Assembly (NCBI GenBank): GCA_035221665.1
Contig: CM069161.1
Coordinates: forward strand, 3,720,001 to 3,784,000
Direction: 5' to 3'
Length of the DNA stretch: 64,000 nt
DNA from: Okamejei kenojei
Lineage: Eukaryota
Of the stretch, positions 25,682 through 47,927 are shown piece by piece. Position 1 is the stretch's first letter. The number at the start of each line of letters is the position of its first letter. The position numbers and the translations under genes were made by a program. The notes beneath the pieces were generated by a model. That model saw only the letters and a list, made by a program, of their open reading frames with translations, was not told where the DNA came from and searched no databases.

Positions 25682-26250
25682 TTAGAGCCCTGGTGAGATC
25701 ACACCTGGAGTATTGTGTGCAGTTTTGGTCCCCTAATTTGAGGAAGGACATTCTTGCTATTGAGGGAGTGCAGCATAGGTTTACACCGTTCATTCCCGGG
25801 ATGGCGGGACTGTCATATGCTGAGAGAATGGAGCGGCTGGGCTTGTACACTCTGGAGTTTAGAAGGATGAGAGGGAATCTCATTGAAACATATAAGATTG
25901 TTAAGGGCTTGGACACGCTAGAGGCAGGAAACATGTTCACGATGTTGGGGGAGTCCAGAACCAGGAGCCACAGTTTAAGAATAAGGAGTAAGCCATTTAG
26001 AACGGAGACGAGGAAACACTTTTTCTCACAGAGAGTGGTGAGTCTGTGGAATTCTCTGCCTCAGAGGGCAGTGGAGGCAGGTTCTCTGGATACTTTCAAG
26101 CGAGAGCTAGATAGGGCTCTTAAAAATAGCAGAGTCAGGGGAGAAGGCAGGAACAGGGTACTGATTGGGGATGATCAGCCATGATCACAGTGAATGGCGG
26201 TGCTGGCTCGAAGGGCCGAATGGCCTACTCTTGCTTGGATTGTCTATTAG
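25682..26250 (+). mobile_element. CR1-clade LINE (HER1-like) 3' fragment
   Basis: ORF 25693-26184 RSHLEYCVQFWSP...EGVQHRFT...LGLYTLEFRRMRGNLIETYKI...FFSQRVVSLWNSLP is the CR1 ORF2 C-terminus, followed by the 3'UTR. Confidence 0.92.
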
Positions 26251-27217
26251 AACAGTTTGTTTTCATGCGTAGTTGCATTGAAATGGAGAATTGGAATTTG
26301 TTAGTCAGCGTCAACTTCGTTTAGTGCAAAACTCCGTGCACCGTTTTCCTCATTACCAAATTTAATGCCTCCATCGGCCTCTTGCTGCTGCATCAACAGC
26401 CCCGAATTTACCAGGCAAATACAAGTTTAAGAATCTTTTCTGTCTGGGATGGGGATGAGGAAGGGGTCCCTGATGAGTCGTGAATGCCCACAAAATGTTG
26501 GAGGATTTGTGCTCTTCAAATCCAGGGTCAGCTTCACTGTATGTGTAAAAAACATAGTGTGTGATGGGGGGAGGGGTGGGGTTGTTGCTGTGTTCGTGAA
26601 GCATATAGCTAAATCTTCAGAAAGTTGGGACGATGTTTCTAACCACGTTGTGATGACACTATTGAGATTGTGCTGTGGCTGCGTGTCCACTTACCTTCAG
26701 AGACCCATAAAGTGAACAAGTAAAACGACCGAGTTCTTCTGCAAGTAATGGTATTGACTTATCATTGTCATGTGTACTCGGATAAAGTAAGAAGCTTTAT
26801 CTAGTTACACTTCATACCATGCATGAGTGCAACCCCACTATTCCTCCAACTGGAAGTGCAGAATATAGTTTTACACCTACTGAGAACCCCAAAACAGGTG
26901 TTCTTGTCTGTTTCTATAAATATCCTAAACATCCTAATTTCCTTAGTTCTCTTTTAATTTAACCTTCCCCTCTCTTTACATCTATTTGGCCAATTGTACT
27001 CTTAATATACCGTGTTTCCTTCTTGATCATTTGTCTCCCTCTCCCTCCTTCATTCTAAGAAGCTCACTGGTTAACTGGTGGCAGACTGTAGTTTGCCAAA
27101 TTCATTAAGTTCCCCGTTATTTTGTTCTCTCCAGTGTGCCTTTGTTAGCTCAAATGTGACCATCTTGCAGTTCAATATCAATTAACCTAACGGTGAGGGG
27201 AAACTCCTTCCAGCAAT

Positions 27218-27572
27218 CGACACAAAATGCTGGTGTAACTCAGCAGGACAGGCAGCATCTCTGGAGAGAGGACATGGGCGTCATGTTGAGTCGAGTCGAG
27301 ACCCTTCTTCAGACTGAGAGTCAGGGGAAAAGGAAACAAGATATAGATGAAGTAGAGAGATATATAACAAATGAATGAACCATATGCAAAAAACAACAGT
27401 GATTTAGGGAACAGAGCATTTTTAGCTGTTTTCTATGTGAGAATGAGAAGCTGGTGAGACTTGCGTGGGGGAGGGGTGGAGAGAGAGGGAATGCAGGGGT
27501 TACTTGAAGTTAGGGAAATCAATATTTGTACCACTGGGTTGTAAGCTTCCCAAGCAAAATATGAGATGCAGC
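27218..27572 (-). mobile_element. Second Penelope-like 3' fragment
   Basis: Colinear with 7520-7875, including the end of the GIY-YIG ORF (gggaaatcaatat...ccactggg.tgtaagct.cccaagc) and the terminal pLTR sequence. Confidence 0.8.
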
Positions 27573-28112
27573 AACCTCATTCCAGCAACCTCTGGCATAG
27601 TATTTTTGTGATTGTACGGTAATGAAATAAAATCAAAACTGGCATCAGAATCTACACAATCATGACAGATTTACTGTGTGTCTGTTACCAAACACACCAC
27701 AATGAAATCTTCAAATGGACAAGTACCAAATTCCTCGAATCGTTTTATTTTCCATTGAATCTGTGTGACAGTAGCTAAATTCATTGGAGGGTGGTGCTAA
27801 TTTCGTTTCACTGACTTGTTTAATGCTACAATGGTAAAAAATTTCATTTTGGGAGGTCAACAAAAAATATCACCATATATACTTGGGTACTAGCAGTGGA
27901 ATCGGTGATAAGCAAGTCAACTGTGTATCTAGTTGACCATCTGCCACCCTGCATTGCACAAATCCACAATAAAGGGCACTGTTGACTAATCTTGCCAATT
28001 AATCTCTAACTACTAGTTTACAATAGGCCCGGCCTTGAGGTGAGGGAAAATTTTTTGGAAGTTATATGTCAATAGTCACCTGCTCCTCACAACCAAGTTG
28101 CATTTACCATAT

Positions 28113-28328
28113 GTGTAAGAAAGAACTGCAGATGCTGGTTTAAATCGAAGGTAGACACAAAATGCTGGAGTAACTCAGCGGGACAGGCAGCATTTCTGGA
28201 GAGAAGGATGTTTTGGGTCGAGAGCCTTCTTCAGTCTAAAAAAGGGTCTCGACCCGAAATATCACCCATTCCTTCTCTCCAGAGATGCTGCTGGTCCCAT
28301 TGAGTTACTCCAGCATTTTGTGTCTACC
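28113..28328 (-). mobile_element. Penelope-derived fold-back (palindromic) element with TSD
   Basis: Two inverted arms meet at cttcttcagtct. Flanked by tgcatttaccatat (28099-28112) and tgcttttaccatat (28329-28342). Confidence 0.85.
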
Positions 28329-29497
28329 TGCTTTTACCATATATTATATCTCAGATAATTCATTCACTGTATCAAAAATATTACTTTCAAAGGGAAAGCC
28401 ATCTAATTTGTATTTAAATGATTGGCATAAAACACACTGAACCACATAGGGAACTTGTTCCACAGACTGAGCACTTAATCTCCAATGGATGCATTGGTCC
28501 ATAGAATATTGTAGTATCGTTGTAGGGTTCAAATGTACTTGGATAATAAATTTGTTTAAGGATTAAGCTTGCTCTTCTCATCTTCTAATTGAATATATTT
28601 TCAATTCTGTTCAAATCATTTCATTTCCCTTCTCTAATCCTCAAACTCCCCCAGCCCAACAAACCTCAAAATCTTTGATTTTAACCAAATTTTAATTCTT
28701 GCACAACTTCTATTCCCTCCATCCATTATTGGTAAACATTTTTTCATCATCTAGATTCTAAACTCTGAGAAACCACCTCTTCATGCATTCCTTCCTCTTG
28801 CAAGTCTCTAGTTACACCTTTCAAGTTACACCTGAAACGTCACATACTCCTTTTCTCCAGAGATGCTGCCTGACCCTCTAAGTTACCCCAGCATTTTGTG
28901 TCTATCTGCTGTGCAAACCAGCATCTGCCGTTCTTTTCTACACATTCGTTTCTTGGCATTGGTGTTAATTTTTGGCTGCTTCCACTTTTGTGAGGTGCTT
29001 TTCCATATGCTCCTTCATTGAACATGACAGAAATGCAAAGGTCCATGTTCTTCAGAGATGCTGCTTGATCCTCTGAGTTATTCAAGCATTTTGTATCTTT
29101 CCTTGGTGCACCAACATCTGCAGTTCCTAGTTATTACATTTTGCTTGACCAAGATAGTCCCTGTACCTGCTTCATATGCCTCCGAACCTTTTCAGCCATG
29201 TGTCATGTACCACAATCTCTAGCACTCGTTCCATATTATACACTACCCTCTGTATGAAAACATTGCCACTCAGATCAATTTTAAATCTTTCCTATTTCAC
29301 CTTAAGCACCATGCTCAATACTCGAGTACTTAAACGAACGAGAAACAAAATTAATGTGTCAAGCTGAGTTTTCATTGGGACATGTACTGGTAAACTGTTC
29401 TTGAATTTGGCCTTGTTATATGGTTGGCTGAATCATAATTTTGTTTGTGGCAACATAAACAGAAATTGCCCCCACATACAAGTCTAAGATTTACTTT

Positions 29498-30050
29498 ACA
29501 TAGAAACATAGAAAATAGGTGCAGGAGCAGGCCATTCGGCCCTTCGAGCCTGCACCGCCATTCAATATGATCATGGCTGATCATTCAACTCAGTATCCCG
29601 TACCTGCCTTCTCTCCATACCCCCTGATCCCTTTAGCCACAAGGGCCACATCTAACTCCCTCTTAAATTTAGCCAATTAACTGGCCTCAACTACCTTCTG
29701 TGGCAGAGAATTCCACAGATTCGCCACTCTGTGTGAAAAATATTTTTCTCATCTTGGTCCTAAAAGACTTCCCCCTTATCCTTAAACAGTGACCCCGTGT
29801 TCTGGACTTCCCCAACATCGAGAATAATCTTCCTACATCTAGCCTGTCCAACCCCTTAAGAATTTTGTAAGTTTCTATAAGATTCCCCCTCAATCTTCTA
29901 AATTCTGGCGAGTACAAGCCGAGTCTATCCAGTCTTTCTTCATATGAAAGTCTTGCCGTCCCAGGAATCAGTCTGGTGAACCTGCTCTATACTCCCTCTA
30001 TGGCAAGAATGTCTTTCCTCAGATTAGGAGATCAAAACTGTACACAATAC
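29498..30050 (-). mobile_element. CR1-clade LINE 3' fragment
   Basis: ORF YSPEFRRLRGNLIETYKILKGLDRL; (catagaaa)n tail on the + strand. Confidence 0.92.
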
Positions 30051-33000
30051 TTTAGACTTGGTGCCATGATTATAATTGAGAAGGGATAAGAATAACAGAA
30101 TTTGATAATGCTACCACATTCTAGTCCATTTACTTTTCGTTAAGTCACGGATTCAAGTAAAGAGGAGTGGAAACCCATTTGTTTTATCTTTCAACATTAA
30201 ATTCACCCTACTGCGCCCAAGGGTATTCTTACTTGGAAAAGCACTTAAGATAGACAATAACTGAGATTTAAATGGAAATAGATGTCTTTTGATTTATTTT
30301 TAAACATCAAGTTTAGTTTCATAAAATAGAGTATGTAAAAATGTAGTTCAATTTTGAGTTAGCAATTAAAGACTAATGAAATTGAGTTTTTAAAAATTAA
30401 TGTAATTGTTTAAATCAAGGTTATCTGTGAAGAAGACAATTCCATCATTTATTTTCATGGTCACCAGTGCAATTGTCAACAAGTTTGAAACTTGGAGGTT
30501 TGTTTAGGGTCCTTTATTTAAAAAATTGAACAAACCTTTGCAAAGGAACAATTTCCATAATGCAGATTATTATCATAGGTGCAAAAACTACAAGGTAAAT
30601 CAAATAGAAATGTTGTTTGCCGACACTCAAACTATAAACCGTAGTCGGAAGTGAAATACTGGGATGGTCAGCTGACTCGTTTGGGGATTCTGAAAGAGGA
30701 TGAGGTAGTGTTGGAAAAACACTTCAACTTCAACAAACTGCATGATAGATATTGCATGTAGGTATTACATGTAGGTATTGGTTCTTAAGGTTTTAAAGGA
30801 TTATATAGAGCAATATATATTGGTGGCAGTCTTGCAAAGTTTGGATTGATAACAAATTCTTCCAAATTTATTGTAAACACAGTATATGATTACTGTTTAT
30901 GGTATGATGCATTGTAGTATGGTAACAGGATTTCAGACACGTAATGTTGGCCATGTTCTCTGTTGCCTCATTTGCAGTATCTGGCTTTAAAGCTACATCA
31001 ATTGGTTTTCAACAGATACAGTATCTATTTCAATAAAATTACATAGATTTTATTCCATACAAACTACCTCCTGCTTTTCTTTCACTCATTGTACCAACAT
31101 AATCCTTTGTTTCATTCTCCATGATCTATTTATTCAGTTTCCCAATACAGCCATCAATGCCATCCTTCTCAATCTGTCCACGTGGTTCTGAATGCCTCTG
31201 TATTAGCATGTGTAATATTAGAAGCAATAAAAACAAATCAAGTCAAACTCTCATAATATTGCATTCATTGAAAGAAGGCAGTGACACACTTTGCTTCTGC
31301 CATGCTGCAATTGCATGAATCCACAATAAGCAGCGCATTTAGTGAAGCAATTAATGCAATGTTGCATCAACCTGTTAGTTGTTTCAATGTTAGTGTCTCC
31401 CAATTTTCATTCTGGATGATGTTTGGTAGATTTGGAAACGATAATTCATTGAGATATATAAGAATGTAATGTAAACTATTTATATTTGCACAATTTACCT
31501 AAAGAAAGCAACCATATTACATAGATTTATAACATATAGTGTAGCTTTGGTACTTCTAGATGAACAGCCAAAAACTGGCATTTAGTTAGTGCTGTATCAC
31601 CTGAATTAATTGGATTGAAAATAACAACATACAACGCGATAAATTAAAAAAAATGACAATTATTTATATTTTACTAAATTGCCATTTTTAACTAATTCAG
31701 TCTGTACTAGTCATGCTATCAACTATCTGCGAATAATGGCATCGTTATCATTGAGTCAATATATTAAAGCATCATGGTTACCTTTTAGAGACGTATATCA
31801 ATAAATCCATTATTCCCAAATATTATCAAGTGAGATATTCAATATTAGAAATGTTGTATTTTAAGTAAGATTTGGATGACTAGAGGATCCAGATATATGT
31901 TTCTGAAGAAGAGGAGGGTGCCCTTCAGTCTGAAGAAGGGTCCCGACCCAAAAAGTCATCTATGCATTTCCTCCAGGAATGCTGCCTGACCCACTGAGTT
32001 ACTCCAGCATTAGGTGTCTTTCACTGACACACACAATCTGGTTATTAATGCATTGTTTTATGTGGGATATTTCCATGTGCAAACTATCTGCCCATCTCTG
32101 ATATTATGTTAGTGACTTCACTTCATAATCAAATCATTAATGTTGGCATTCTGTGTGAGTTTCTATATATGCCCAAATTAGTTTGAGGAAGTTTTGATTC
32201 TGCTTAAAACAATGTTGATATGCTCCAAACAGTTACACTAGCCATGTTAAGAATGAGTAAACTAACCTCCACATCAACACAATCACAGTATTAGGTTACT
32301 TGGATGAAATACTGTGTATCTTCATAGATTTATCCAATAAAGTCATATTAAATATATGTGGTGTTGTAAAATATAAGGCTTCACTGCCACACGGTATACG
32401 TTTGAACAAAACTATTGAAGGAATTTTTGGAAACACTGAGGAGAGAGTAAATTGAAAATCAGTGCAGGATTCTCTTTGCAGATAGCGTTCCAAACAAAAC
32501 AAAACACAAGGAGCTTAGGGTGCTGAAATAATTTCCATACCTTTGCCAGAATGTGCAATTGAAAGGCTTTGGGTGGGGACCTATATCAAGATTTTTATCA
32601 CCAAAATTGGTGAGCTATCTACACAAAGGGAAAATAATCTCTAAGGTAATAATGAGCTGAAATATCATATCAGCAGGCCCTTTTCAATTACATTGGTTTC
32701 CACACACCTGACTACCCCAGTTGAGTTTACTAATTATCACCACATTTCTTTCATTGCTTGGCTCCCTACCAAAATATGTGTCAGTTGTAGGAACATTCTG
32801 GTTGATGACATCTCGCTTTCCATCTGCCTCTGCACATTGCATATCTCCTGCATTTTCAGCCGCCTAAGGCCATTTTTGATTAAATTGATATGCAGAGAGC
32901 ACGGGATGAACTGGTGACTTCTTGCAGACAGATCAACAAGTGATAAATATGTTCCTGTTTCTTGAGTTGCTGTAGAAGCTAATGATAATCTCCCTCCGTT

Positions 33001-33162
33001 GATTCAGGTCATGGGTTAAAAGCCCACCCAGACACAACTAATCGTAGAGAACTGCAGAAGAGCTCTCTATGGGTGAGACATTTGACCCAGGTCCTCTTAG
33101 ATTAACTAACAAAATCCCATGGTAGAATTCTGAAGAATTTCTCCCAACATCCCACCCAATAT

Positions 33163-33298
33163 TCAGTCTGAAGAAGGGTCTCGGTCCAAAATGCCACCCA
33201 TTCCTTCTCTCCAGAGATGCTGCCTGTCCCTCTGAGTTACTCCAGCATTTTGTGTCTACCTTTGATTTAAACCAGCATCTGCAGTTCTTTCCTACACA
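33163..33298 (+). mobile_element. Solo Penelope pLTR arm with tail, inserted in an old Deu-SINE
   Basis: tcagtctgaagaagggtctc...tttaaaccagcatctgcagttctttcctacaca. Confidence 0.82.
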
Positions 33299-33409
33299 TT
33301 ACTCGAGAAAACCCAGATTGTCATATTTATGACATTGCAGGCCACAAGAGAATGCAGGGCATTCATGTGTTATAGCAGTAAGAATACCTCCGTGCATTCT
33401 TAATTAACA

Positions 33410-33688
33410 GGGTGGCACAGCGGTCCAACGGTAGAGACGCAGGTTCAATCCTGAACTATGGCTGCTGTCGTAACTGAGTTTGTATGTTCTCCCTGTGACC
33501 GCATGCGATTTCTCCAGGTACTCCAATTTCCTACCACATCCCAAAGATGTGCAGGTTTCTAGGTTGATTGGCTTCTGTAAATTGTCCCTAGTGTTATAGG
33601 ATAGAACAAGTGTACGGGTGATTCTTGGTCGGCATGGACTAGGTGGGCCAAAGGCTCTTATTTCCACGCTATATCTCTAAACTCTATA
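33410..33688 (+). mobile_element. HE1-like V-SINE
   Basis: ggtggcacagcgg...ggttcaatcc...gagtttgtatgttctccctgtgacc...tatctctaaact. Older copies lie at ~51785-52070 and ~63370-63650. Confidence 0.83.
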
Positions 33689-35399
33689 AATACAGTTTAA
33701 AATTTCCAAAGAACATGAATGGCACTTTGTAATTAAAAGTCTTTCTTTCCCACAACAAGAGTCATTCCTGCTATATTGCCAAGTGTAAAATTGATCCATT
33801 TTGGCTTCATAAATGTGAGGTTTGATTGCAATTGCTGAATATTTAGGACTTGTCAGATCTTGGCCAAGGAGATATAGGGCTAAATGTGCCGGCTCTGGCT
33901 TGGATTCAGCTACTCCTGAGTATCAAGTCTCGGACATTTGAGAACCTATTCCAAGTCTAGGAAATGAAGAATGCTGTGGTGGATTATTGGATTTCATATT
34001 ACGATTTGTTGTGTAAAATTATAATATGGTGGTCTAAAACTTGGATTCATATACAACTGTAATTTTATCTATTACTACACTAAGTAGGGTGTATAAACAT
34101 GTTGGTTTTGAGATAAAGCCATGGGAAACCAATTACAAATGCTTAAAGAATTTAGATGAGGTTTCTTCTTCAGCTATTTTAATAATGCTTTAGATCCCTT
34201 TATTTAAAATATGTTAATGCCTAAGGCAAAACTGGAGGCATAGATCTGGAACACAATTTTGTAACTCCCACAATGCAGCATGTGATGTGATATGCATTTG
34301 GTAAATAGTTTTATAGTTTTTTGGAATACATCTCAATTTATGCAATTTGTATATAATTTCTTAAATCTGCATTGTATGGTGGATTTCTACTCTGAACAAA
34401 TTGGTTGTATCATGCAACATTAGTCTTTTTGACTGAGTGCTCTCGGCAACAAGCTCCAGTGCCTATGCAGCAGTCTCATATACACAGGATGAATGGAAAT
34501 TCATAGCAAGCTCATCCTTAGTGTTACAATAGATTTTCCAAACACAACCCCTCTGAACACTCAATATATTTAAAACTTGTCTGCCCTTGTGCTATTAGTG
34601 AGGCAGGAGAGCTGCCATTGAGCCAGAAATGACAACTTGTCCACACCAACCAACAAGTCTCAGCTATACTAGTCGCACCTGCCTGCATTTGGCCTATATC
34701 CCTCTAGATCTGTCTAGTTACATGTAAAGCAATGTAAAACACAATGCTTGCTGTGCATTAGAAATTGGTGATCATTCAAGGCTTACCTGCCCTTCCTTCC
34801 TACAAGTCCCATGGTGATATCCTAGTTTTGTTGCTGTCTCTTCCATTCAATCTTTTGCATTTCCTCAAAATGGTTTAGTTCAACTGTCATTTATTAAGCG
34901 TTTGTCCCTATTTTCAGTAAATGGTGGTGTCTTATACTAGATTATAATGCCATATTTTTAATTATTCCTGGTGCCACCTTGATCTTTATTTATAAAAAGA
35001 AACTGTTGCTTCTGCAAAGTTTAAGATATGTAGCTAACTAAGAGATTTTGAGATTTTGTTGAACGTTGGGGTTTCTCATTTGGCGAACTAGGAATGGCAG
35101 AAAAAAATGAAGTGGTGAAACTTCTCCTGTCTCTTAAGTCCAGACCCTACTACCCAAGATCCACACAGAAAAACACCACACAAAGACTCAAATCTCAGTC
35201 AGCGGATTTATAAGCGCCTTGGATGGGAAACAGAAACACTGTTGTGGTTGGGACTTATGGGGCTAATAGCAGTATAGAAAGTAACATGGAGATTCAATGC
35301 AGATTTGTCCTACAATGAGAAAATTAATCACGCACTCTTCAGGACTTTCCGTTCCAAGCCCATGAGAAGCCAAGCAGGGTGTGGGGATCATTATCTGGT

Positions 35400-35812
35400 G
35401 AGGAAACCTTAAGCAGACTGAGCCCGTCTGCAGTCTCAACTTTAAAAGAATGAGAGGTGATGACATTGAAACAAAGACATTCTTATGGACTTAAGAGGGT
35501 GGATGCTGGGATGGCGTTTCCATGGCTGGGGTTTCCGAAACCAGTTACAAAAGAAGGAGATTAGGACTTAGACAAACACTTTCTTCATCCAGAAGAAGGT
35601 TAGTCTTTGAAATTATCTACCCAAGATGGTTGTGGGGAAAGACATTTGCTGAGTATATTCAATTCAGAGATTGATAGATTTTTGGATAGTGAGTAAAGTT
35701 ATGGGGTTAGGACAGGGAAGTAATGCTCAGTTAAATGATTAGCCATGATCTCATTGAGAACAGGAGCAGGTAAGAGGCCAAATGGCCTACTCCTACTTCA
35801 GTCTATTTTTAT
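35400..35812 (+). mobile_element. Diverged CR1-clade LINE 3' fragment
   Basis: agaatgagaggtgatgacattgaaaca ... agccatgatctcattga ... aatggcctactcct. Confidence 0.7.
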
Positions 35813-38059
35813 GTTAATACATGAATGCCACACATCCACCCTCTGGTGTAAAGTTCTCCTATATCCAGCGCAAACAGCTTTCAGTACAAAATACAACAAG
35901 AATCACTCCACACCCTGTGACTGCGAAATTTGATTGTGCAGGTCAGTTTATTTCAGCACTATACCACTGATAATGTATTATGGATGAATTGTGGCACAGT
36001 TATTATTATCTCCTGGTATTCCCAACACAAATCATCTAATTCAGGATCTGATGTACATCAGGGGGGTTTTGGAGCATTGTGGGGTAATGGGTGCATGTAG
36101 GCCTGGGAGCAACTGAAACTGGCCTTTCTCAAAAGTTGTGATGAACTGGATGGACCAGGACTGTAATAAACGATGTTATGAGCTTAAGTGGTGCTTCTTG
36201 TGTACTGCCTTAGTCATGTCTACTATTCTTACTCTTGCACTTTGTTACAATTATGCCCATGTGGAGTAGGATTTTACTGAATTGTATGCAGGAAACAAGA
36301 ATTTCATTCTCCTAGGCACATGTGACTAAAAAGTACCAATGAACAATTGAGGATTCGGGAAAAACGAAGGGAGGCATAGCAAGGAAGCCAGGAGACAGTT
36401 GACAGCAGACAATAGAAAACACTGCATAAAAGTAAGAGCATGGCTGTCAACATCGTTGTAAATTCAAGCCTCCATTTGCAGCTGCACCATCACTTAATCA
36501 AAGAATTGTTTGCTACTTTTGTATATGGTCACAAAGAGCGACTGTTTGATGAAGGATTGCACCTTAGTAGTTTCATAATGTGTCTGTTAATGCTCCCGGA
36601 AGGTTGTGGCATTCATTTTCTTTCTTGTTTTGTTTGTTTACAACTTTCTGTGATGACCTGTTAAACAGATAAATACTACATTATAAAGCGTGATACTCAT
36701 TGGCCTGTCAACTCTGCTTACAACATTTCTTAAAATCAATGATCAAATATTTGACCACAGCTCCTCAACGCAGTCCTTTGGCTTGCCATCATTTGTTTTA
36801 ATGTGCTTCTTTAAAGGTTAATTGAAGTTGCCATCAGGTATTATTTTTTTTATTGGTAAAGGGGATATCATGGATTAGAATATTTCCATTATTTTCAGAT
36901 TCTAGATTTAAACACAGCCTAGAATGAATGGTTAAAATTTCCCTGCCAGCCAGCTGTTGGAGTTTCTTCAAATATATGTTTGAGCAGGCATGTTTAATTT
37001 TCTAGAAAGGTATCAAATAGGCCCCTCATTCTCTCTGAATTACTGACCCCACCTAATGGAATGAAAATTGATCACTTTTTATGGAAATTATAACTCTGGC
37101 ACTGTGTAGATTACCTCAATTGATTGCGGTCAGGCTATATTTTTGAGCTGGAATTTAATTTCCATCTAACCTTTACACTGGGATCATTGCTGCTAATATG
37201 GGATGCTAGCAATAAATATGTGACAGAAAATTACAATCTTTTAGCTGTTGAATCATCATTCTGGGATGATCTACAACAAATCTGAAACTTATCTAGACCA
37301 CAGCTAACTTTCATGTGGCTATGAGACGAGGTGAAAGGTCCTGAAACAAATAATTAACCTTCTGACTTTTCAAAGCATTTAAAAAAGAACAAGTCGGAAC
37401 GGTGAAAGAAAAAGTCTCTAGTTGCTTGGATGAGAGCTGAAGCAGCAATACACAAGCAGTGGAGCAATCCTGGATAATGCAATCTATTTAACTGGGCTCA
37501 AACCTCACACTCCGTATATTTACACCTTCCACCACTTGCTCACTACAGCTATTACATACCAGCTACAAAATGCACAGCAGTAATTCACAAACGCTTCCAT
37601 GGCAGTACCTTCCAAACTCCAGTCTCTGTCACCTAGAAACACAGGAGTAGGGGGCACATATATTGTCTTTCTGCTGACTGGTTAGCACGCAACAAAAACT
37701 TTTCACTGCACCTTAGTAAATGTGATAATAAACTAAACACAAGGAAACACTAGTATCTGTCAGTATCCCTGCTTACCACACACCATCATGGGAAGTTCAT
37801 AACCATTCCGTCTTGATTCCATCCTCCCTAATATTACTAGGGAATTACCATCAGAGCTGAAAGAGTTCAAGGTCGCATTTCCCAATCATCTTCCCATAGC
37901 AATTAAATGCTGGATTTCCATACCTCTGAAGCAACAAAATATCAAAATAATAGTGAAAATTAATATTGTGCATAAAGGAAAAAGGAGCAAAGTAAGAACT
38001 ATATACTTTATTCTAATATAAATATGCTTTAATTCTAAAACATTTTCAGCTACACAATC

Positions 38060-38402
38060 TAGAGTCATAGTTCTAGAGTGATACAGTGTGGAAACAGGCC
38101 CTTCAGCACAACTTGCCCACACCGGCCAACATGTCCCAGATACACTAGTCCCACCTACCTGCTCTTGGTCCACATCCCTCCAAACCTGCACTATCCATGT
38201 ACCTCTCTAACAGTTTCTTAAATGTTGGGATAGTCCAAGCTTCAACTACCTCATCTTGCAACTTGTTCCATACACCCATCACCCTTTGTGTGGAAAAAGT
38301 TACCTCTCAGATTCCTATTACATCTTTCCCCCTTCTCCTTGAACCTACGTCCTCTGGTCCTCGGTTCCCCTACTCTGGGCAAGAGACTCTGTGCATCTAC
38401 CA
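38060..38402 (-). mobile_element. CR1 subfamily B 3' fragment
   Basis: Reverse complement of the same family as 18014-18249. Confidence 0.87.
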
Positions 38403-40360
38403 TCTCTACGATGTGTTAACTTTAAGTCAGTGATCGCCAGCCTCGTGTCTACGTTGGTTTATATGATTTGTCAAAGTCAGAAGGCTGGAGACTGCTATAA
38501 TGAGGTACTGAATTGCTGAGGGACCGATCACAAAGGTCATCAAAGCAAATGTGTAATTATTTTCTCTTTTAGTGTCCCATGCAGTGATGTGAAGGCTTAG
38601 ATAACAAGTCTTTCAATTCTGCAAGACATTGAGGAACAGACAATAAAAAATCGATAGCTTAATGTGTAGGTTTATGATATTGAACCATATATGAAACAAA
38701 GTTACTGTTCAATCCCCATTTGTTATACTGCTTAAATAGCAATTGAATTGATGGAATTGGGTTGAAAAAAATTGGATTAGCAATAGTTTAACAAAATCAG
38801 TCCTGTTTCTCCACATTCAATTTCTGCCAGTGAAAAGAAAGGGAATGTATTACAGATTCATTCCCTTTCACAATTATGTAACAGAGTCAAAAATCAAAAG
38901 GCTGCTGATGCTGGAAATCTGAGATAAAATAGAATGTAGCCAAAGTACTCGAGAGGTCAAGGACTATCTGTGGAAAGAGAAACCGAGGTAACGTTTCAGG
39001 TCAAATTTTAGATTCCATGTCGGGTAGATAATGCATGTTAGAATTTTTCCCATCTGCCAAACTCCACCTAAACTTGGAGAAATTTATTCCTTGTCCCACA
39101 CCAGCTGTAATGAAGAGTATGGTCCTTTATGCTGTGGTTTCATGCCTGAGGCTAATGGGTATAGTACAAACCAAAGTAAGTTCACACACATCTTATCATC
39201 CGTTAATAGAAGCAGTTTTCACCCCCATTTGGTTGAACTGGATTCAAAGCTCGATATTTTTATCCTCATTGATCCTTAATTATTAAACATTACTTTATTA
39301 GATTTTTTTTTTAATGTATTTGTACAAAACCGGAACATTGTTTTATTATCTGTTCCTAGTATGCATTATTTTTTTGTGGCCAAATAAATCTAAGTCATTG
39401 CAAATGAAATTGAACTTCAGTTGCATATGTAGTATGAAGTTAGGAAGTTAACTGCACTGGGTTCTGTCTGGATGGGGTGGCACTCTTGACCAAAGGTCTC
39501 ACAGACAATTCACAGGATTATACAATTTTTGTACCAGTAGTAAGTGTGGAACTGCTAAAATTAATTAAACATAACCTAGATCATTGCTGGCTGTCAATAA
39601 GGGAAGACTGAGGCCAATGGAGATACAACATGAGCCTAAAGTATGTACCGCAAAAATAATGCATTGAAGAGCATATTTCATTTAATGTTGCTGGTAATTA
39701 TTGATGACTTTACCATTTGTGGTCTTATTGGAAGAAAGTCTCTTTGATAATTGTCCATTGCTCTGCTTAACCTCGTATATTAGCGAATGGAATTGGCAAC
39801 AGCTCAAGTCTAATGGTATTTGCACCTGATGATTCCACTAGAGATTATATTTATTCAGCAAACAAATGGTCCAATATAGGTAGTTTAAATATTGCCTAGA
39901 TTGTGTATGCTTCAAATTATCAGGTGTGAAAAACTTCACCCATTATCTTTTTACCTCTGGACAGAACGATTTCAGATGTCTTCTGGCCAGACTACCATCT
40001 TCCACCCTCCATAAACATAGATTCACCCAAAACCTCTGAACACGTTATCTATCAGCTTTGTGTTTGTTGAGCTACAATGTGCCCCAAATTAGCAATCGCA
40101 AAGATTCCCTCCCAAACCTTGCATTGGGTGTGAAATACCATCCTTTTGAACCTTTCCATTTGTGTTCTCTAACCCCAATGAAATGGGCTCCAAAGCGAAA
40201 CCAAACATAGGGCAAAACTAGCCCCAGATTGTACTATGGGCCAAATTGAGATTGAAACTGACATCGTGAAGGAATCCTGTGCATGTTATGAAGTTCTGAT
40301 TCTGGTTAACCGTGGCACAAAATGTATAGGTAGATCAGAGAGCCAAAATCTATATACATT

Positions 40361-40758
40361 AATCATCGGCGATCACTCAAAATGAGTATGACTGTCTCTC
40401 CCGAGGACGACTGTGCATGACATTGTTTAACGTGGGGAGACTGGTGCACAGACAGCCACCACACGGTCCTTGACAGGTCTGGGTCAAGATGCAGTGGCAT
40501 GGAGTCCAAGATGACCGGGGACACTTTTCTGCTGCAGCCTTCATCCGCCTTCCCAGCCGTTGTGATGCTCCACTAAGGTCAGCCATCATCCTCCGCCTGT
40601 TCCACTGTTGAGGTCTTTGTTGGATTGTGCTTTGCCAGAGACCTCCCCCTCGACCTTATGGCCATGGGTGGCCCCACCAGGGGCATCGCTCCAAACTGCT
40701 TCGATCTCAGGACCACACGGGCTTCTCCACCACGACAAGGTGACAATCCACGGAGAAG
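40361..40758 (-). mobile_element. Non-autonomous RTE-clade element (RTE 5'UTR joined to 3' end, no ORF)
   Basis: Minus-strand 5' end caccttgtcgtggtggag...tgcccctggtggggccacccatgg resembles RTE/Expander/Bov-B 5'UTRs. The 3' end is ...gccgatgat. Imperfect flanking duplication aatc-tatatacatt / aatccat-tatatccatt. Confidence 0.65.
40693..40758 (-). ncRNA. Predicted HDV-like ribozyme at the 5' end of the RTE element
   Basis: Minus strand: P1 CUUCUCC/GGAGAAG (7 bp perfect), P3 ACC/GGU, L3 UUGUCGU, J4/2 CGAA, P2 GGAUUGU/GCAGUUU (wobble-rich). P4 is weak. Confidence 0.5.
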
Positions 40759-41997
40759 AATCCATTATATCCATTCTCTTATGTATTTAGTTCATGAACT
40801 AAATTACATGACACTTCTATTCTTAATGAGATCTCTAATTTTCTGAATTCTATTCATCCTTGAAGTGTAGAATCAGGCAGCAAGCAGGAATGTTTATCTG
40901 TGTAATCAACAAAATGGAAAACTATGCTGCTAACTAAAGATGGACAAATCGAATCTGGCCAAATGCTGTTATATTTGTCCACTCTAAATCATCAGCAGAT
41001 CATGGGTGGTGTCATCACTTCTTAATCTATCAACATTTCTTGGTTTGTGTTCCTCCAGAATCATAGTTTCAGACCTCTTTACCAGTCTTAATCCACATGG
41101 GGGCAAAGTCTCTGAGTTTCATATGTAAGGTGAAGACAATGGCACTTGATATGAAGGTGATATTTGACCAGAAGTTACATCAAATAGATCCACAAAAGAT
41201 TGGTCAATAGGAATCAGAGGAAAACTCTCATCTAACTTTAGCTCATACACATGATTAGAGGATGATTATAAGATTGGAAGTCAATTATCCTCGGGCAGTG
41301 TGAACAACCAAATGTAGCTGCTCCTCCTTCCAACAGGTCAGAAGTGGGTAAAATCACTGACAATTCTGCAATCTGGGTCCATTCCCAATTTCTCGGATTT
41401 GTACAAGCCTGGACCAATATTCAGCCTTGAGCTGATACACAACAAGTAACTTTCATACAATGCAAGTAACAGGCGTGAACCACTTCCAGCGCAAGAAAGT
41501 CCAATAACCTTCCAAAGACATTCAATGACGTAAACATCATCAAAACCACTAGGACAACATCGATGCGACACCGTTGATCAGCAGCTTGACTGAACACATA
41601 TTTTGATGTAGGTTTTCCACAGTGAGTAGATGACATCCCAACTATCCATCCTTCTGGATCAGTGCTGCTCCGTCAAAACTCATAAAAGTTCACACCATGG
41701 CAAAGCAGGGTGTTTGACACTCTTCTCGGCATCAACAAGATGTACTCCAAGCACATACCCGCGCACACCTGTGGCCCCACACCCCCACCATCCCCAATCA
41801 GCTGCCGGTAACAGGGTAACAGTTACATGTGCTGTACCTTCATCTTTTCTCCCCTTCAAAAGAGATGACCACTCTGCCTTGATCACCAGTCTGTGGTCTA
41901 CATTCAAACAGCTGAAGCTCCCTGCTACTGTGGGAGTACACTCAGTGCACATGTAAGGAGCCTATTATCTAGCTGTTCTCAGGGATGACAATAAATC

Positions 41998-42146
41998 CTG
42001 AAGAAGGGACTCCACCCGAAACATCACCGATTCCTTTTCTCGAGAGATGTTGCCTGGCCCTCTGAGTTACTCTAGCATTTTGTGTCTGTCTTCAGTGGAA
42101 ACCAACATCTGCAGCCCCGAACCATAACCCTAACCTTTCCTAAACA
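41998..42146 (+). mobile_element. Solo Penelope pLTR arm with TSD
   Basis: Flanked by acaataaatcct (41988-41999 and 42144-42155). Confidence 0.78.
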
Positions 42147-43544
42147 ATAAATCCTAACCTGGTCACCAACTCCCACGTTCCCTGAATGAATTTCAAATAT
42201 ATATATATATTTTAGATTCCATAAAAATCTTGCCAGAAGTGTTTAATGTAGGTTATGGTGGATATTTAGAGAGGTTTCTGAATTTGCGTTTCACATGATT
42301 CTGCACAATATTGTATTGACGGTGACTAATCGACAGCAACTTTCTACCTAAAGTGTTGAGACTTGCATGACGCCTCCAGACTGAAATTCCCTGGCACTCA
42401 GCCCATTCGCAAAGGTGGAATGCCACTTCGTAAACCAGCTACGAACTCGTGTGCACGTTCTGTACCCCACCTCCTTGAGTCAAAGTTAAAGTCAATTTTA
42501 TTCGTCACATACACCCGAAGGTGCAGTGAAATGAATAGAGTGCACGGCCCATTAGGTCATTTCGAAACGACGTGTCTGATTTCGCTTGGAAGGAGTTCTG
42601 GAGCACAACATATAGCCATCTCCGGCACTTTTCACAGCAGAGCAAGGGGGGTAAAAAACGAATCACCTCTGGCTTTCGTATATTTTAATCTGGAGAAATT
42701 GTTATGATATTGCACGACTCATTATTAAGAATATTTCATATCTAGGAAGAACTGCAGATGCTGGTTTACACCGAAGATAGACACTTCTTACACTTTATTT
42801 TAACCACTGCTCAGAAACCACAGCCCCGTTTCTGTTCCACCGTCTCCAGAAGAGAAAAAAGCAGTGTAGTTTTCTGCCCTCAGCAACCTTTAATGCTGAA
42901 CGGTACACAGAAACCACGGCGCTCTGTAACTCCCTGCGCCTCCCCGTTGCTCCTGACCAAATCCTCTCCCTGCCTCGGTTCCCGCTGTCCACAACCAATT
43001 CGCACCAAGTCCCGGAGGAGATGAGTTTTTTGAGAACAAAATCTCAAAATAGATTCTTATTTCTCCAAAATCACTGAATTCAGCTGGTAGTATTAGATTT
43101 CCGCGAAATGTAATTTGGCGAGAATGCCAGAGAGGAGAAAATACCGGGTTAATTCTTAATCAGATTTTTATTAGAACGAAAACATCTTCCATTCAGGGCG
43201 GTTTACAGTGCACGGGGCCGCTGATTTGGGGGCTTGGTATTACTGTTATATTGGCCAGCTCTTTCTGTTGCAACAATGGGAGCGTTTTACAAGTAATGCG
43301 TGGTATTCTGTCATTGTTACCCGACCACTAAAATGCCCTCACATTCAATGTGATGTTGGCTTTCATACTTTGGGTCTTATATCCTCAACCGGGTCAACTT
43401 CATGATCGGTTTATGATGACCGATCGCACTTGGTACACAATGCTTTTACGGGTTTTTGTTTAAATTGAGATTTGGCCGACTTCAGCTCTCTACAGCCCAC
43501 AATGTGTGAATGTTTCAATCAATGAAGCAAGCAATCAATTTAAA

Positions 43545-43656
43545 TCAGTCTGAAGAAGGGTCTCGATCCGAAACGTCGCCTATTCCTTTTCTCCAGAGAT
43601 GCTGCCTGACCCGCTGAGTTACTTCAGCTTTTTGTGCCATCTTCAATATAAACCAA
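43545..43656 (+). mobile_element. Solo Penelope pLTR arm with intact minimal hammerhead core
   Basis: CTGAAGA-A-GGGT(CTCG)ATCC-GAAAC-GTC at 43550-43577. Confidence 0.8.
43546..43581 (+). ncRNA. Predicted minimal (PLE-type) hammerhead ribozyme motif
   Basis: All core nucleotides are present (CUGANGA, GAAA, GUC), with an extra A after A9, a 4-bp stem II and a palindromic ACGU in place of helix III. Stem I is very weak; activity is untested. Confidence 0.55.
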
Positions 43657-45489
43657 CGAATGAATTAAATAACTATTCGTTGCTAAGAATTGAATGAACA
43701 AATTAATGAATCATAAAATTAACCGAGAATTCCGTGTAAGGAATTTTAACCGGCACTGTATTCGAAGTCCCACTTTTAAATGTTTATTCATTTTTAACTT
43801 TAGCTGCTCTCTTTTTGTTTATTTGTGCCCCTGTGGTTCTACCCCCTCTACCCTTTCTCTTCAGAGATTCAGTAGGTTTCGAAATTTCTCGCTATTCAAT
43901 CAAGTCGGGGAGGTGGGGAGGGGGGTTGGTGGTGGGTGAGTTGGGAGCATTGAGGTTAGAGTGGAGTGTGTGCTTGTCGCGCTCGCTGACACCTTTACCC
44001 TGATCCGCGACGCCCCCTCCACTCACCCCCCTCTTAGCACCAGGTCAGCAGACCCGACAAGATGTTACGACCTGCTTCTTCCATTACTGCCAATTAAATT
44101 AAATTTTTAAACCATATCTTCTTTAAAAAAAAAACATTATTTGCTTCTGAGTTGAAATGCTCAGGATCAGTTTTGATGCTTCATGAGCTAAAGGGATTAA
44201 AAAGAGCAAAATAAGCTTATACTGAGAAAAAGAGTTAAGCTTCTACCCCACTGCGAGAGAGGGCAAACTATATCAGCGCGAACTAGTGATTAGGGCCATA
44301 GCTGCGCCATTCACACGCCCTTTAGTCATTTTGATGAAAATGTTTCAATAGGGATTTCCTAGTCCACCCCACCCGATTGGGGACACACTAGAATTAAGAA
44401 TAGTTGGCTGTTGCTACGATTTGTCAGGGAATGCCAGAACTCTGCAGTGGGTAACGTTGCCTGAAGTAACTCTCTCTATTGTGTTAATAATACAGTGTGA
44501 CACCGAGCTAACAAAGGCAGATTCAGACACTCAGCAGGTAATGCAACTCATTTTCCAGGCAAGAGAGTCGGCCTCTGTCCTGAGCTGTCACAGGGCATTC
44601 CCACACCTCCGACATTACACTCTCACACTTACTCTCTCATACTTAATCCCAGGACCATCCCACACCTTTAAACTGTCCCAGGACACACTGATTGTGTCTC
44701 CTACATCACTGTCCATTGGCCTTGCTCTTTTGGTGAGTTCCTCATTCACAATTACTTTAACACCATGCTCCTTGTTCTGCTCCTGGCGTCTGCACTTCGC
44801 TAAGTATTCAGCATTGACCTTTCATTGCAACCCTCTTATCTTTCACCCATCGTGGGTTTTTTTTTACATTTAGAGGACCAGGGTTAAGCAGAAATATATC
44901 ATTGTTTGTTTGTTTTCAGGGTATCGGTAAGTATCATGCACATCCAGTTTTCCCATGGACATTAAAAGCCAACAACACCATCACGTTTCTTTAGGTTAGA
45001 TGGAGGTGGCAAGTTTCTTTCTATGAGGGACACCCATGACCCAATTGAGTATTTATGACATGCATTGTTTTTTTTTAAATCATTGTTAGATTCAGGGAAA
45101 ATAATGCTTGATTTGCTTCTTTATGCTAAAGATTCAGGAGATGACTGTTAAATCAATTTCAACGTGATTACCCCAAGTAAAAATTCTATTATGTTTCATG
45201 AAGTACATGTAATGAACTTTCCAGCGAACGGCACCAGGGGATTCACAACTTAAATGTACAATAATATGTCAGCTTATATCTCTCACAACTCTGCAGCAGA
45301 TTAATGAAAATATATCACTTTTGTTCACAATGTTAAACTGTCTATACCCTCAGGTGGTTAAAACGATGAAGACCAGGGTAGTCATCCTTGTTTTCTCGCC
45401 AACATTTATCCTTTGAGAAACATACATTCTGTAAACCAGGGTGAAGGTGGCTGCAGCCGCAATCTACACCCACTCCTTTCTACATCTAC

Positions 45490-45655
45490 TGGACTTTATC
45501 TTGCACTAAGCATTATTCATCTTATTGTCTTTATCATACATCTGCACACAATGGATGTCTCTACTGTAATCATGTATTTTCTTTCTGCTGACTGGTTAGC
45601 ACGTAAGAAAAGATTTTCACTGTACCTTAGTACGCGTGACAATGCACTGAACAAA
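45490..45655 (+). mobile_element. LINE 3'UTR fragment (Rex1/Babar-like; family uncertain)
   Basis: ctttctgctgactggttagcacg.aa.aaaa..ttttcactg.accttagta is shared with 37660-37738. Confidence 0.55.
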
Positions 45656-47927
45656 ACTACATTTCTTCCTTTAAACTTGCTGCGTGCAAATTGACTTCAA
45701 TGAATACCTCCAATTTCAAATGACCATATTAATCATTCGGTATGTTAGGATTCCCTGATCTTACAAAAGCATCCTACACTTGTGGCTTTTGTTTAGTTTG
45801 CTTCTGTTTTTGTCTTTCCTTTCATTTACATAGAGCAGATTTCTAAGTTTGAATCATATGGTATGGAACACATTGACACAAAATTAGAAAGTAGCTTGTC
45901 AGAGATGATTGATGGCATTATCTGTGCTGGATAGGAAAATGTAACTAATTAGAAGGGAGACGGTGAATGTGTCCATTATAGAACAGAGCATGAGAGCCCG
46001 TAAGGTTGTCGGATCATTCTCCGAGCTGTGCCGGTCTGCTGATCCAATTTGGTTGCTGGGATCTTGTTAGGTAAGATTATTAAAGGGTCATGGAGCCAAT
46101 ATGAGTAAATGGAGAAGCAAAGGCTTGTATGTAGAAATACCATTTAATGTACTCTAGACATCTTCACATTGGACACAACCAACAGTGAACACTCTCATGG
46201 ATATGGACTGTTCATTCGTAGTGATCAACCAGATTCAACCTCAACCAAAAGCAATAGATATATAAATGGGTGGGGGAATCACACTGATAATATAAAAATA
46301 TTATCATATCCTAATTATATTTTACTAGTTTTCTTTTCAACTGAGGAGATAATAACCAAAAATGTAAAAAGGTTTCCAGCGCTCTAGAAAAGCACAAAGA
46401 AATATCATACAGTGCCATTAATGTTTTCATGTTATTACTTAACTGTTTTCTAATTTGATATATAGAAATGAGATGTGATTCCATCTAATTTGATCTCCCT
46501 GCCAACTGGCAAGATAATAATGGATGCTTTTGACAGGAGTCCCCAGTGTGCAACTCAATAGCCGGGGTTTGTTGATGTCATGAAAAGAGAGCTGAAGATT
46601 ATCAGTAAACCACTGAAATTTATTTTAATGCCTAGCTGCGACCGTTGGTGCTCGTCTTAATGAAGTGTGGGTAATAATCTGCGCTTTTTTAAAATGGGGA
46701 AATCTCACGTACATCCCAATTTAAAGGCAAACGCCTGGAATCAGCAAACCTCTTATACGGGGAAGATGCAGTATGACAATAATTCTATATAGTACATTGG
46801 TAATAATTCTTCTTAATGTGTCACTTTTAACGAGTGAATCTCACCATAAGCACATCTTTTAACAGAAATGTTGTCAACAATCCTTTCAATATGGGAGGGT
46901 TATTATTTTTATGCAGTGACTCTCATCATCTTTAAAGAGGGCGCTTTCATCACAAATGACCTCTTTATTTGGAGATCTTCACCTTCAAAGATGATTGACA
47001 ATATAAATGCTTCTTTTTAAAGAGCTAATCTCATCATCAGCATCCCTTTTTAATTGAAGAGTTTCTCCAGCAGTATGTAATAACATCAGCAAAAAAATGC
47101 ACCATCCTACGAATGCGTTTATTGTCTCAGAGTGGGAAGGAAATAAATAACCCAGAGGCCCCACTCCTGATTAGTATTCATTAACCCTTGCTGAAATTAT
47201 GCATGCATTTTCACATGAGGAAGAATCTAAGATTAGTTTTGGCTGTGATGCCCCCTCAGTAAAATAGCTTACAAATGAAAAAGTAAGGGTGGTAGATCTG
47301 AATACCCCTACAAATAAGAGATTTTTAAGAGAGAAGGTAGTGGCAACCACCCCCCCCCCCCCCCCGCCCCCACTCCCCGAAAAATACTTGTAAATTTACA
47401 ATGAAGACATTTTTTTTTAAAGGAGCGTTTCATTCCAGCTTCATTTAAAATGTTTTTCAGGAGTAGACTATCCAACTGGCGATAAACATTGTAATTAATC
47501 CAGAATCACTTGTGTGAACTAAATTAATGTAACTCTCAGGTTCAGTGACAAATCATATGAGAGTTTTCCAAAATTATTTCTAAGCCAGGTTGTTGTAAAC
47601 AAAATGAAGGTGATCAGAGTTAGTAAAATATCATTACTGCCTCAATTCATTGTCACTTCTGCCGCAGATACTCAGAAGAGGTCCTATTGGCAAAACTTTC
47701 TTTAAATCACAATATATTGTCTGCTATTTAATGTAATATATATTAATTACATTTCTAATGATCAAAGAAACACAAACATTAACAACAGACATCTTCACAA
47801 TAGTTTACAGATGCATCATGTCATTAGTTCAGATTACAAAACATGAATCATTGGCTTCTTTTCTGTGGCAGTGTTGAAATCTGTCCATGTCCTGATCCCC
47901 TTCTCTCCTTTTTGTCTCAACTTCCAG

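What the first reader, a model, noticed from the sequence alone, without database searches (positions are those of the whole stretch)
40361..40758. HDV-like ribozyme fold exactly at the 5' end of a ~400 bp ORF-less RTE element
Seen on the minus strand from 40758: CUUCUCC-GU-GGAUUGU-C-ACC-UUGUCGU-GGU-GGAGAAG-C...CGAA-GCAGUUU. This gives a perfect 7-bp P1, a P3 with a 7-nt L3 resembling CPEB3 L3 (UUCACGU), a J4/2 CGAA like genomic HDV (candidate catalytic C opposite g40703), and a wobble-rich P2. The element boundary suggested by the imperfect TSD coincides with the start of P1, the expected cleavage site. Known: RTE-clade retrotransposons can carry 5' HDV-like ribozymes. Inference: a bipartite non-autonomous RTE that kept only the ribozyme head and 3' tail, so it can cut itself out of host transcripts. 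This copy lacks G1 and has a weak P4, so it may be decayed.
Basis: partly seen in the sequence, partly recalled or inferred. Interest (0 to 1): 0.7.

Follow-up and report, generated by a model that had tools for sequence, protein, structure and literature searches.

The report
Ribozyme-headed mini RTE with kink-turn
This is one worn copy of a short jumping element made from the two ends of a longer retrotransposon; its front end folds like a self-cutting RNA about twice as long as first proposed and carries a conserved, likely kink-turn bend, but cutting is predicted, not shown.

Summary
The element is real: 40758-40362 (minus strand) is one copy of a 407-nt family, 91% like the family majority. 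It equals nt 1-367 plus the last 40 nt of a 3.9-kb endonuclease/reverse-transcriptase LINE in the same genome. The head core has 1,391 exact genomic matches. P1, P3, L3 and the 5' edge at P1's first base are confirmed. The real ribozyme spans about 145 nt (40758-40622 here), with candidate catalytic C at 40634. Its P2, P1.1 (G-C/A-U) and P4 helices covary across metagenome homologues. C1-G, not G1, is the lineage norm, as in active trypanosomatid ribozymes, so lacking G1 is not decay. This copy lies antisense in a Wnt3-like intron, so it would not cut that pre-mRNA. Cleavage is untested. The scan has noted ribozyme-headed mini-RTEs in other genomes before. Known kind, variant ribozyme.

The parts
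40362..40758 (-). Whole non-autonomous element (tail-A type of a 407-nt family)
   Evidence: 40 scored genomic matches: itself and 39 at 87-90%; 90.9% to the majority of 30 copies
40759..40775 (-). 5' copy of imperfect target-site duplication; ends at the base before C1
   Evidence: sequence; TSDs of 8-19 nt in 17 of 34 other copies against 0-2 in shuffled pairings
40347..40360 (-). 3' copy of imperfect target-site duplication
   Evidence: sequence
40622..40758 (-). Predicted HDV-like ribozyme (137 nt here, 145 nt in the family majority); predicted cut between 40759 and 40758
   Evidence: covariation; cleavage inferred
40752..40758 (-). P1 5' strand, starts with C1
   Evidence: pairs 7 of 7 with 40728-40722; C-G first pair in 29 of 37 homologues
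40742..40749 (-). P2 5' strand
   Evidence: 7 of 8 pairs show two-sided changes
40729..40741 (-). P3 and L3; L3 G at 40736 pairs with C at 40721 (single-pair P1.1)
   Evidence: P1.1 is G-C in 11 and A-U in 10 of 23; P3 was fixed by the search pattern
40722..40728 (-). P1 3' strand
40635..40719 (-). P4 domain (multi-helix). This copy lacks one 8-nt unit and breaks 3 peripheral pairs
   Evidence: 92.4% of cells paired, 78 two-sided changes against 29.8; differences, broken pairs read from alignment A1
40705..40714 (-). Kink-turn signature, bulged strand: 5-bp helix (40714-40710), 3-nt bulge (40709-40707), GA (40706-40705)
   Evidence: kink inferred from sequence only
40639..40645 (-). Kink-turn signature, other strand: GA (40645-40644) then helix strand
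40631..40636 (-). J4/2, candidate catalytic C at 40634
   Evidence: GAC-N-AA in 63 of 64 homologues where the motif search located it, out of 79 distinct
40622..40630 (-). P2 3' strand with one bulged base
40403..40621 (-). Rest of the LINE 5' UTR
   Evidence: matches the long element up to nt 367
40394..40408 (-). Deletion junction; in intact copies a 6-bp hairpin formed by 5'-UTR and 3'-UTR arms; degraded here
40362..40402 (-). LINE 3' end (about 40 nt) with (GAT)n tail
   Evidence: matches the 3' end of 15 of 21 long loci
25243..47927 (+). Host context: intron of a Wnt3-like gene (ends approximate); the element is antisense to it
   Evidence: Pfam wnt hits for two downstream exons; upstream exon at about 25.0-25.2 kb by translation; the Wnt3 label is recalled

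Best explanation
[quoted passage not shown] Shown: the bipartite anatomy, TSDs, a 5' edge at or just inside P1, and covariation of P1, P1.1, P2 and P4. Inferred steps: (1) a source copy is transcribed by read-through or from a promoter near its 5' end; (2) the double pseudoknot cleaves 5' of C1, with C133 (window 40634) as the general acid, giving a defined 5' end; (3) the LINE's endonuclease/RT protein, supplied in trans, recognises the 40-nt 3' end and copies the RNA by target-primed reverse transcription, leaving 8-19 nt TSDs; (4) the conserved ~90-nt P4 domain, kinked by a likely k-turn, is a probable protein-binding or packing module and not part of the active site. The window copy keeps the catalytic core but has a damaged outer P4 and lies antisense in a Wnt3-like intron, so it is most likely an inert insertion.
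For: Bipartite: the family majority matches all 21 long loci in the 5' part (ending at nt 367 in 19) and at nt 368-407 in 15 of 21. The majority of 16 long copies has one 1,148-codon frame; real fragments hit RVT_1 (E 1e-18) and Exo_endo_phos (E 1.6e-6). Fold: over 32 distinct P2 strands from metagenome loci, 5.28 of 7 Watson-Crick pairs against 3.09 +/- 0.26 shuffled, maximum 3.94 in 2,000 shuffles. Unconstrained RNAalifold recovers P2, P3 and the P4 helices. Core: 73 two-sided changes against 25.8, 0 of 500 shuffles. P4: 78 against 29.8, 0 of 500. A second LINE family found by protein, not by the RNA pattern, has a 68% identical head with the same pairings and kink-turn signature (pairings read by eye). 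Active trypanosomatid HDV-like ribozymes cleave at C1 (PMC4035085 section 8), and L1TcRz has a one-pair P1.1 (PMC3185411 passages). Contigs of an independent run have loose ends at family positions 1 (115 contigs) and 2 (51).
Against: No cleavage data. Nested thermodynamic folding of the family majority prefers an alternative long hairpin (P1 probability 0, P2 0.10-0.16; window copy 0.56-0.59 and 0.28-0.40); this method cannot draw pseudoknots, but it shows competing folds. In the head-pattern sample only 13 of 29 copies keep C1. Only 17 of 30 head-pattern hits and 15 of 27 best hits keep an intact core by my criteria. P3 and most of L3 were fixed by the search pattern, P1 was scored at the best of 7 offsets, and the 21 metagenome rows of alignment A1 were hand-picked from 79 distinct cores. 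No intact long copy among 150 scored of 23,412 candidates (longest open frame 613 aa). No Rfam HDV-like family matches even at E 10. RTE clade membership was not tested with a tree.
Confidence: 0.85

Rival explanations
1. The head is a real conserved fold, but it no longer cleaves in these elements. It serves as an internal Pol II promoter, translation element or nuclease shield, and the 5' edge is set by transcription start or RT run-off.
For: L1Tc's 77-nt head is both promoter and ribozyme (PMC3185411 passages). The P4 domain is far more conserved than catalysis should need; P4 of drz-Agam-1-3 is described as not contributing to catalysis (bioRxiv 10.64898/2026.10.01.755752 passages). The majority sequence has competing folds. 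Many copies start at +2 or later.
Against: The catalytic-type features (L3 U..CGU, single P1.1 pair, C-N-A-A before P2) are kept or covary across distant hosts, and the edge coincides with P1.
Confidence: 0.11
2. The first reader's compact ribozyme (about 66 nt), with J4/2 CGAA at 40703 and a wobble-rich P2, is the working fold.
For: In this copy 7 of 7 P2 positions can pair if G-U is allowed, and the C at that site is conserved in homologues.
Against: The CGAA and two of the pairing bases are mutations of this copy. Homologues give 2.12 Watson-Crick pairs of 7 against 2.24 shuffled, and 9 two-sided changes against 6.7.
Confidence: 0.02
3. This particular copy has been co-opted to regulate the host Wnt3-like gene by cutting its transcripts.
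For: It lies in an intron of a developmental gene and keeps the catalytic core.
Against: It is antisense to the gene. It is the most diverged of the 30 aligned copies (90.9%), with several broken P4 pairs.
Confidence: 0.02

Closest known systems
Bipartite ORF-less non-autonomous RTE LINEs (RTE-N2_Lch, WALLSI3, RTESINE2, Bov-A; Kojima 2018, PMC5786205: parts 1-2 of 5, passages and supplement passages read)
   Same: 5' end plus 3' end of an RTE joined by internal deletion; no tRNA head; the paper notes that such elements usually keep the LINE's 5' end and links this to ribozymes.
   Different: The paper's main text has no occurrence of shark or skate and, in what I read, gives no fold. Here one head carries two tails, and the commoner tail B has no LINE partner that I could find.
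Repbase RTE-3_Crp, RTE-7_PM, RTE-4_PM, RTE-2_Croc 5' UTRs (seen only as alignment rows in the supplement of PMC5786205)
   Same: RTE-3_Crp 24-155 is about 85% identical to this head by eye; the downstream 5' UTR is homologous too.
   Different: No ribozyme is annotated in those rows. I could not get the full sequences, so family identity is untested.
L1TcRz and NARTc/SIDER ribozymes of trypanosomatids (PMC3185411 passages and section 12; PMC4035085 passages and section 8)
   Same: HDV-like ribozyme at +1 of a LINE and of its short derivative; cleavage at C1; single-pair P1.1.
   Different: L1Tc/ingi clade, about 77-96 nt long; here 145 nt with a multi-helix P4 and kink-turn signature. Their activity is shown; this one is not.
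HDV-like ribozymes of RTE elements (Ruminski et al. 2011; not held; known from PMC5786205 and PMC6765202 passages)
   Same: Same LINE clade, same position and proposed role of releasing the element from co-transcripts.
   Different: I could not see their sequences or supplements, so this fold may already be among them. Rfam has no HDV-like family matching it.
R2 SIDEs of Drosophila (via PMC6765202 passages)
   Same: Short internally deleted elements propagated thanks to the parent's 5' ribozyme.
   Different: R2 is rDNA-specific and of the RLE type; this element is dispersed and of the APE type.
Standard k-turn (definition in PMC8191799 passages)
   Same: Helix, 3-nt bulge, tandem G:A and A:G in the right orientation.
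   Different: U replaces G at 2n in 12 of 59 homologues; kinking and L7Ae-type binding are untested.

Membership tests
HDV-like ribozyme | 7-bp P1 starting at the cleavage site | tested here: met
   7 of 7 in the window; 37 of 79 distinct homologues have 7 of 7 and 23 have 6 of 7 at the best of 7 offsets
HDV-like ribozyme | 3-bp P3 with a 7-8 nt L3 | tested here: met
   present; its invariance in homologues is by construction of the pattern
HDV-like ribozyme | P1.1 of 1-2 pairs | tested here: met
   one pair, G-C in 11 and A-U in 10 of 23; over all 79 cores G-C 19, A-U 23, with 24 G/G mostly from poly-G expansions
HDV-like ribozyme | P2 pseudoknot closing after J4/2 | tested here: met
   7 of 8 pairs with two-sided changes; found unprompted by RNAalifold
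HDV-like ribozyme | C-N-A-A J4/2 with catalytic C | tested here: met
   located in 64 of 79 homologues by a motif search; the P2 strand covaries right behind it; C in 71 of 87 genomic heads, A in 1, not located in 15
HDV-like ribozyme | G1 wobble or G1-C at the cleavage site (HDV type, recalled) | tested here: not met
   C1-G instead; not required, since C1 ribozymes are active (PMC4035085 section 8)
HDV-like ribozyme | Mg2+-dependent self-cleavage giving a 5'-OH end | not testable with these tools
   only contigs were offered, no raw RNA reads
Bipartite non-autonomous LINE | 5' and 3' ends of an autonomous-type LINE joined with the ORF deleted | tested here: met
Bipartite non-autonomous LINE | Amplified as a unit, with TSDs and a simple-repeat tail | tested here: met
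   308 exact junction matches; TSDs in 17 of 34 against 0-2
RTE clade (partner LINE) | Short element with a single ORF holding APE endonuclease and RT | tested here: met
   about 3.9 kb, one 1,148-codon frame in the majority sequence; Pfam hits; homologues mostly 950-1,150 aa with the same domains
RTE clade (partner LINE) | 5' UTR homology to named RTE families | tested here: met
   by-eye match to RTE-3_Crp and RTE-7_PM rows
RTE clade (partner LINE) | RT phylogeny groups with named RTE elements | not tested
   no hit carried an RTE name to root a tree
Kink-turn | Helix, 3-nt bulge, tandem G:A / A:G | tested here: met
   GA/GA in 36, GA/UA in 12 of 59 scored rows (7 of 66 lacked the anchor); helix 4-5 of 5 pairs in 52 of 59; all 5 helix pairs show two-sided changes
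Kink-turn | Folds into the kinked form and binds L7Ae-family protein | not testable with these tools
   needs FRET or a binding assay

The most novel reading that the evidence does not exclude
A widespread animal RTE lineage carries an undescribed, active HDV-like ribozyme subtype whose 90-nt P4 domain contains a true kink-turn that binds an L7Ae-family host protein (SNU13/15.5K) or the element's own protein. This couples 5' self-cleavage to RNP assembly. A stem between the 5' and 3' UTRs brings the LINE's ends together and sets where ribozyme-headed mini-elements are born and where tails are swapped.
Probability: 0.3. Interest if true: 0.65.

Novelty: new variant of a known kind. Interest (0 to 1): 0.4.

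Why it matters
Ribozyme-headed RTEs and their two-ended derivatives are known, so the element class is not news. The useful gain is a covariation-backed model of this lineage's ribozyme. It is missing from Rfam, has C1-G and a purine-first P1.1, and its conserved P4 has a kink-turn signature. That makes it directly testable: one C-to-U mutant, one k-turn mutant. It would also explain conserved 5' UTR blocks in Repbase RTE families. RTE UTRs are being engineered for RNA-based gene insertion (PMC13708176 passages), so knowing that a 5' UTR may self-cleave or bind a k-turn protein could matter there, though I did not examine the engineered elements. Over a thousand genomic heads also allow a test of selection against sense-oriented intronic copies.

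Tried and rejected
Rfam at E up to 10 on the window stretch and on a near-majority copy: no ribozyme family. Depletion of G at -1, which would protect P1.1: 4 of 38 against 21% background, p = 0.07, not accepted. The 5'-extension tally was distorted by point mutations and was replaced. Expression and in vivo cleavage: no RNA holder listed and only contigs served, so nothing can be said. Partner LINE for tail B: 29 matches to an exclusion pattern; of the 25 fetched, 22 had the family 5' part upstream and none had RT coding sequence running into the tail; 9 loci of a second LINE family lack tail B; unresolved. Intact long copy: none among 150 scored. PDB sequence search gave only distant R2 and L1 proteins. 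My recollection that a drz-Agam ribozyme k-turn is in PMC8191799 was wrong (0 occurrences of 'drz'). Literature searches for this fold or host group; for a k-turn in HDV-like ribozymes: (three papers listed; one read in passages, where the k-turn is an engineered tag; the other two seen as listings only). Ruminski 2011 and its supplements could not be seen and may already cover this ribozyme. No covariance model was built. No look-alike among earlier notes by sequence, none with the kink-turn words.

Full report
What is there. On the minus strand, 40758-40362 is a G+C-rich insert ending in (GAT)n, flanked by an imperfect duplication that stops at the base before 40758. A search of the own genome (2.76 Gb) gave 2,986 candidates. 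The 40 scored were the window itself and 39 matches at 87-90% over most of the element. Thirty aligned copies share a sharp left edge: C at +1 in 26 of 30, no base above 13 of 30 at -1. The window copy is the most diverged, 90.9% to the majority against 94.2-99.0%. In the first 30 exact hits to the head core, a less biased sample, nothing upstream is conserved, but only 13 of 29 distinct copies keep C1 and 22 keep T2. Contigs of another run show loose ends at positions 1 (115) and 2 (51). TSDs of 8-19 nt were found in 17 of 34 two-ended copies against 0-2 in 20 shuffled pairings; 12 of the 17 end within -3 to +4 of C1. The 21-nt head core has 1,391 exact matches and the commonest tail-A junction has 308.

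The partner. Asking for copies that continue differently after the shared 5' part revealed a 3.9-kb element. The short family's majority matches all 21 long loci in the 5' part, ending at nt 367 in 19, and matches again at nt 368-407 at the far end in 15 of 21. The majority of 16 long copies has one stop-free frame of 1,148 codons. Real fragments hit RVT_1 and Exo_endo_phos, and 148 database proteins at E 1e-30 or better have mostly the same two domains. All copies seen are broken: the longest open frame among 150 scored of 23,412 candidates was 613 aa. The supplement of Kojima 2018 (PMC5786205) shows rows of RTE-3_Crp and RTE-7_PM that match this head, about 85% by eye for RTE-3_Crp. The RTE label rests on this and on the anatomy, not on a tree. 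Of the first 30 head hits, 5 have tail A, 19 a different tail B ending in (AAG)n, 3 are long and 3 unclassified.

The fold. The proposed J4/2 and P2 strand fall on three changes private to this copy. To test folds I scanned metagenome contigs with a two-motif pattern and got 102 loci, 79 distinct cores. Eight of the 102 show downstream similarity to the LINE protein within the short flank. A GAC-N-AA motif lies about 115 nt after P3, and the strand behind it pairs with the P2 5' strand: 5.28 of 7 Watson-Crick pairs over 32 distinct strands, against 3.09 shuffled. I then aligned 21 hand-picked cores (leaving out poly-G-expanded, truncated and most near-identical rows) with the window copy and L004. 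RNAalifold found P2, P3 and the P4 helices unprompted. The revised core has 88.5% of cells paired and 73 two-sided changes against 25.8 (0 of 500 shuffles). P1.1 is G-C in 11 and A-U in 10 rows. These shuffles ignore relatedness, and P3 and most of L3 were fixed by my pattern. A second LINE family in the genome, found by protein, has a 68% identical head with the same pairings read by eye. Against the model, nested folding of the majority sequence prefers another hairpin, and Rfam has no match.

C1 is not decay. The first pair is C-G in 29 of 37 homologues with a full P1. Active trypanosomatid ribozymes cleave at C1 (PMC4035085 section 8), and L1TcRz has a single-pair P1.1 (PMC3185411 passages). 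The window copy keeps P1, P3, L3, P1.1, C-A-A-A and all 8 P2 pairs. Its damage is in outer P4: one 8-nt unit is missing (as in 4 other of the 30 copies) and 3 pairs are broken.

P4 and the kink-turn. The stretch between P1.1 and J4/2 is a conserved multi-helix domain: 92.4% paired, 78 two-sided changes against 29.8. Its basal 5-bp helix is followed by a 3-nt bulge and G-A, facing G-A or U-A on the other strand: GA/GA in 36 and GA/UA in 12 of 59 scored rows, 7 of 66 lacking the anchor. That is the standard k-turn layout (PMC8191799 passages), and these bases were not in the search pattern. Three paper searches and the scan's notes gave no natural k-turn in an HDV-like ribozyme. Ruminski 2011 was not held, so prior description cannot be excluded.

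The junction. Earlier notes of this scan suggested that such deletions fall at a 5'-3' UTR stem. Here the junction folds into a 6-7 bp hairpin in tail-A and tail-B copies, and the two arms pair in 7 long copies at -12.6 to -20.8 kcal/mol. The 3' UTR ranks 1, 3 or 16 of 141 bins as partner, depending on whether 17, 30 or 11 nt of the 5' arm are used. In the second family the pairing is strong with one of three 3' ends and weaker with two. This is suggestive, not established.

Host context. Wnt exons lie on the plus strand at about 25.0-25.2, 47.9 and 57.6 kb. The copy is therefore antisense in an intron and would not cut that pre-mRNA. The host is a vertebrate; a cartilaginous fish is my guess from recalled flank repeats.

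Mechanism and verdict. Most likely a source copy is co-transcribed, cuts itself before C1, and is reverse-transcribed in trans by the LINE protein through its 40-nt 3' end. The anatomy and covariation are shown; cleavage, k-turn folding and protein binding are inferred. Both halves of the story are known kinds (PMC5786205; PMC6765202 passages), and the scan has noted ribozyme-headed mini-RTEs in other genomes (26 findings held the search words). The variant feature is the long, kinked P4 on a C1-G core. Interest 0.4.

Noticed in passing
L032, L235, L030 and others (G000): A commoner sibling family has the same ribozyme head but a different ~45-nt tail ending in (AAG)n, which also pairs with the 5' junction arm. 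No LINE with this tail was found.
   Followed up: partly
Supplement of PMC5786205, IdioSINE2: The cephalopod SINE's 3' part, labelled 'unknown', matches by eye the 3' end of this LINE (tail A). Its RTE-derived body begins just after the ribozyme's P2 strand, so it omits the ribozyme.
   Followed up: partly
L279:809-1152, L287: A second APE/RT LINE family in the genome (protein about 47-58% identical) carries a homologous ribozyme head with the same kink-turn signature.
   Followed up: partly
L134, L162 (metagenome contigs): Heads 74-78% identical to this family over 350 nt, followed by the start of the same ORF; this hints at wide or horizontal spread of the lineage.
   Followed up: no
L097-L190 (many Ga01233xx/Ga0131853/Ga0136643 contigs): One homologous family often has poly-G expansions in the P1 3' strand that displace P1.1.
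   Followed up: no
Supplement of PMC5786205, SINE2-1_EC: The horse tRNA-headed SINE keeps a region homologous to this ribozyme, with altered P3/L3 by eye, as expected if an internal ribozyme had to be disabled.
   Followed up: no
window 25003-25243, 47927-48193, 57650-58120 (+, approximate): Three exons of a Wnt3-like gene.
   Followed up: partly
window 25657-26184 (+) and 20201-20569 (+): Fragments that look like the 3' end of CR1/L2-type LINE ORF2 (recalled likeness; no Pfam hit for the first).
   Followed up: no
window 50400-51570: Tandem repeat of about 42 nt giving repetitive open frames on both strands.
   Followed up: no
L049, L262: Copies of this family adjoin or nest in other copies of the short or long element.
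   Followed up: no
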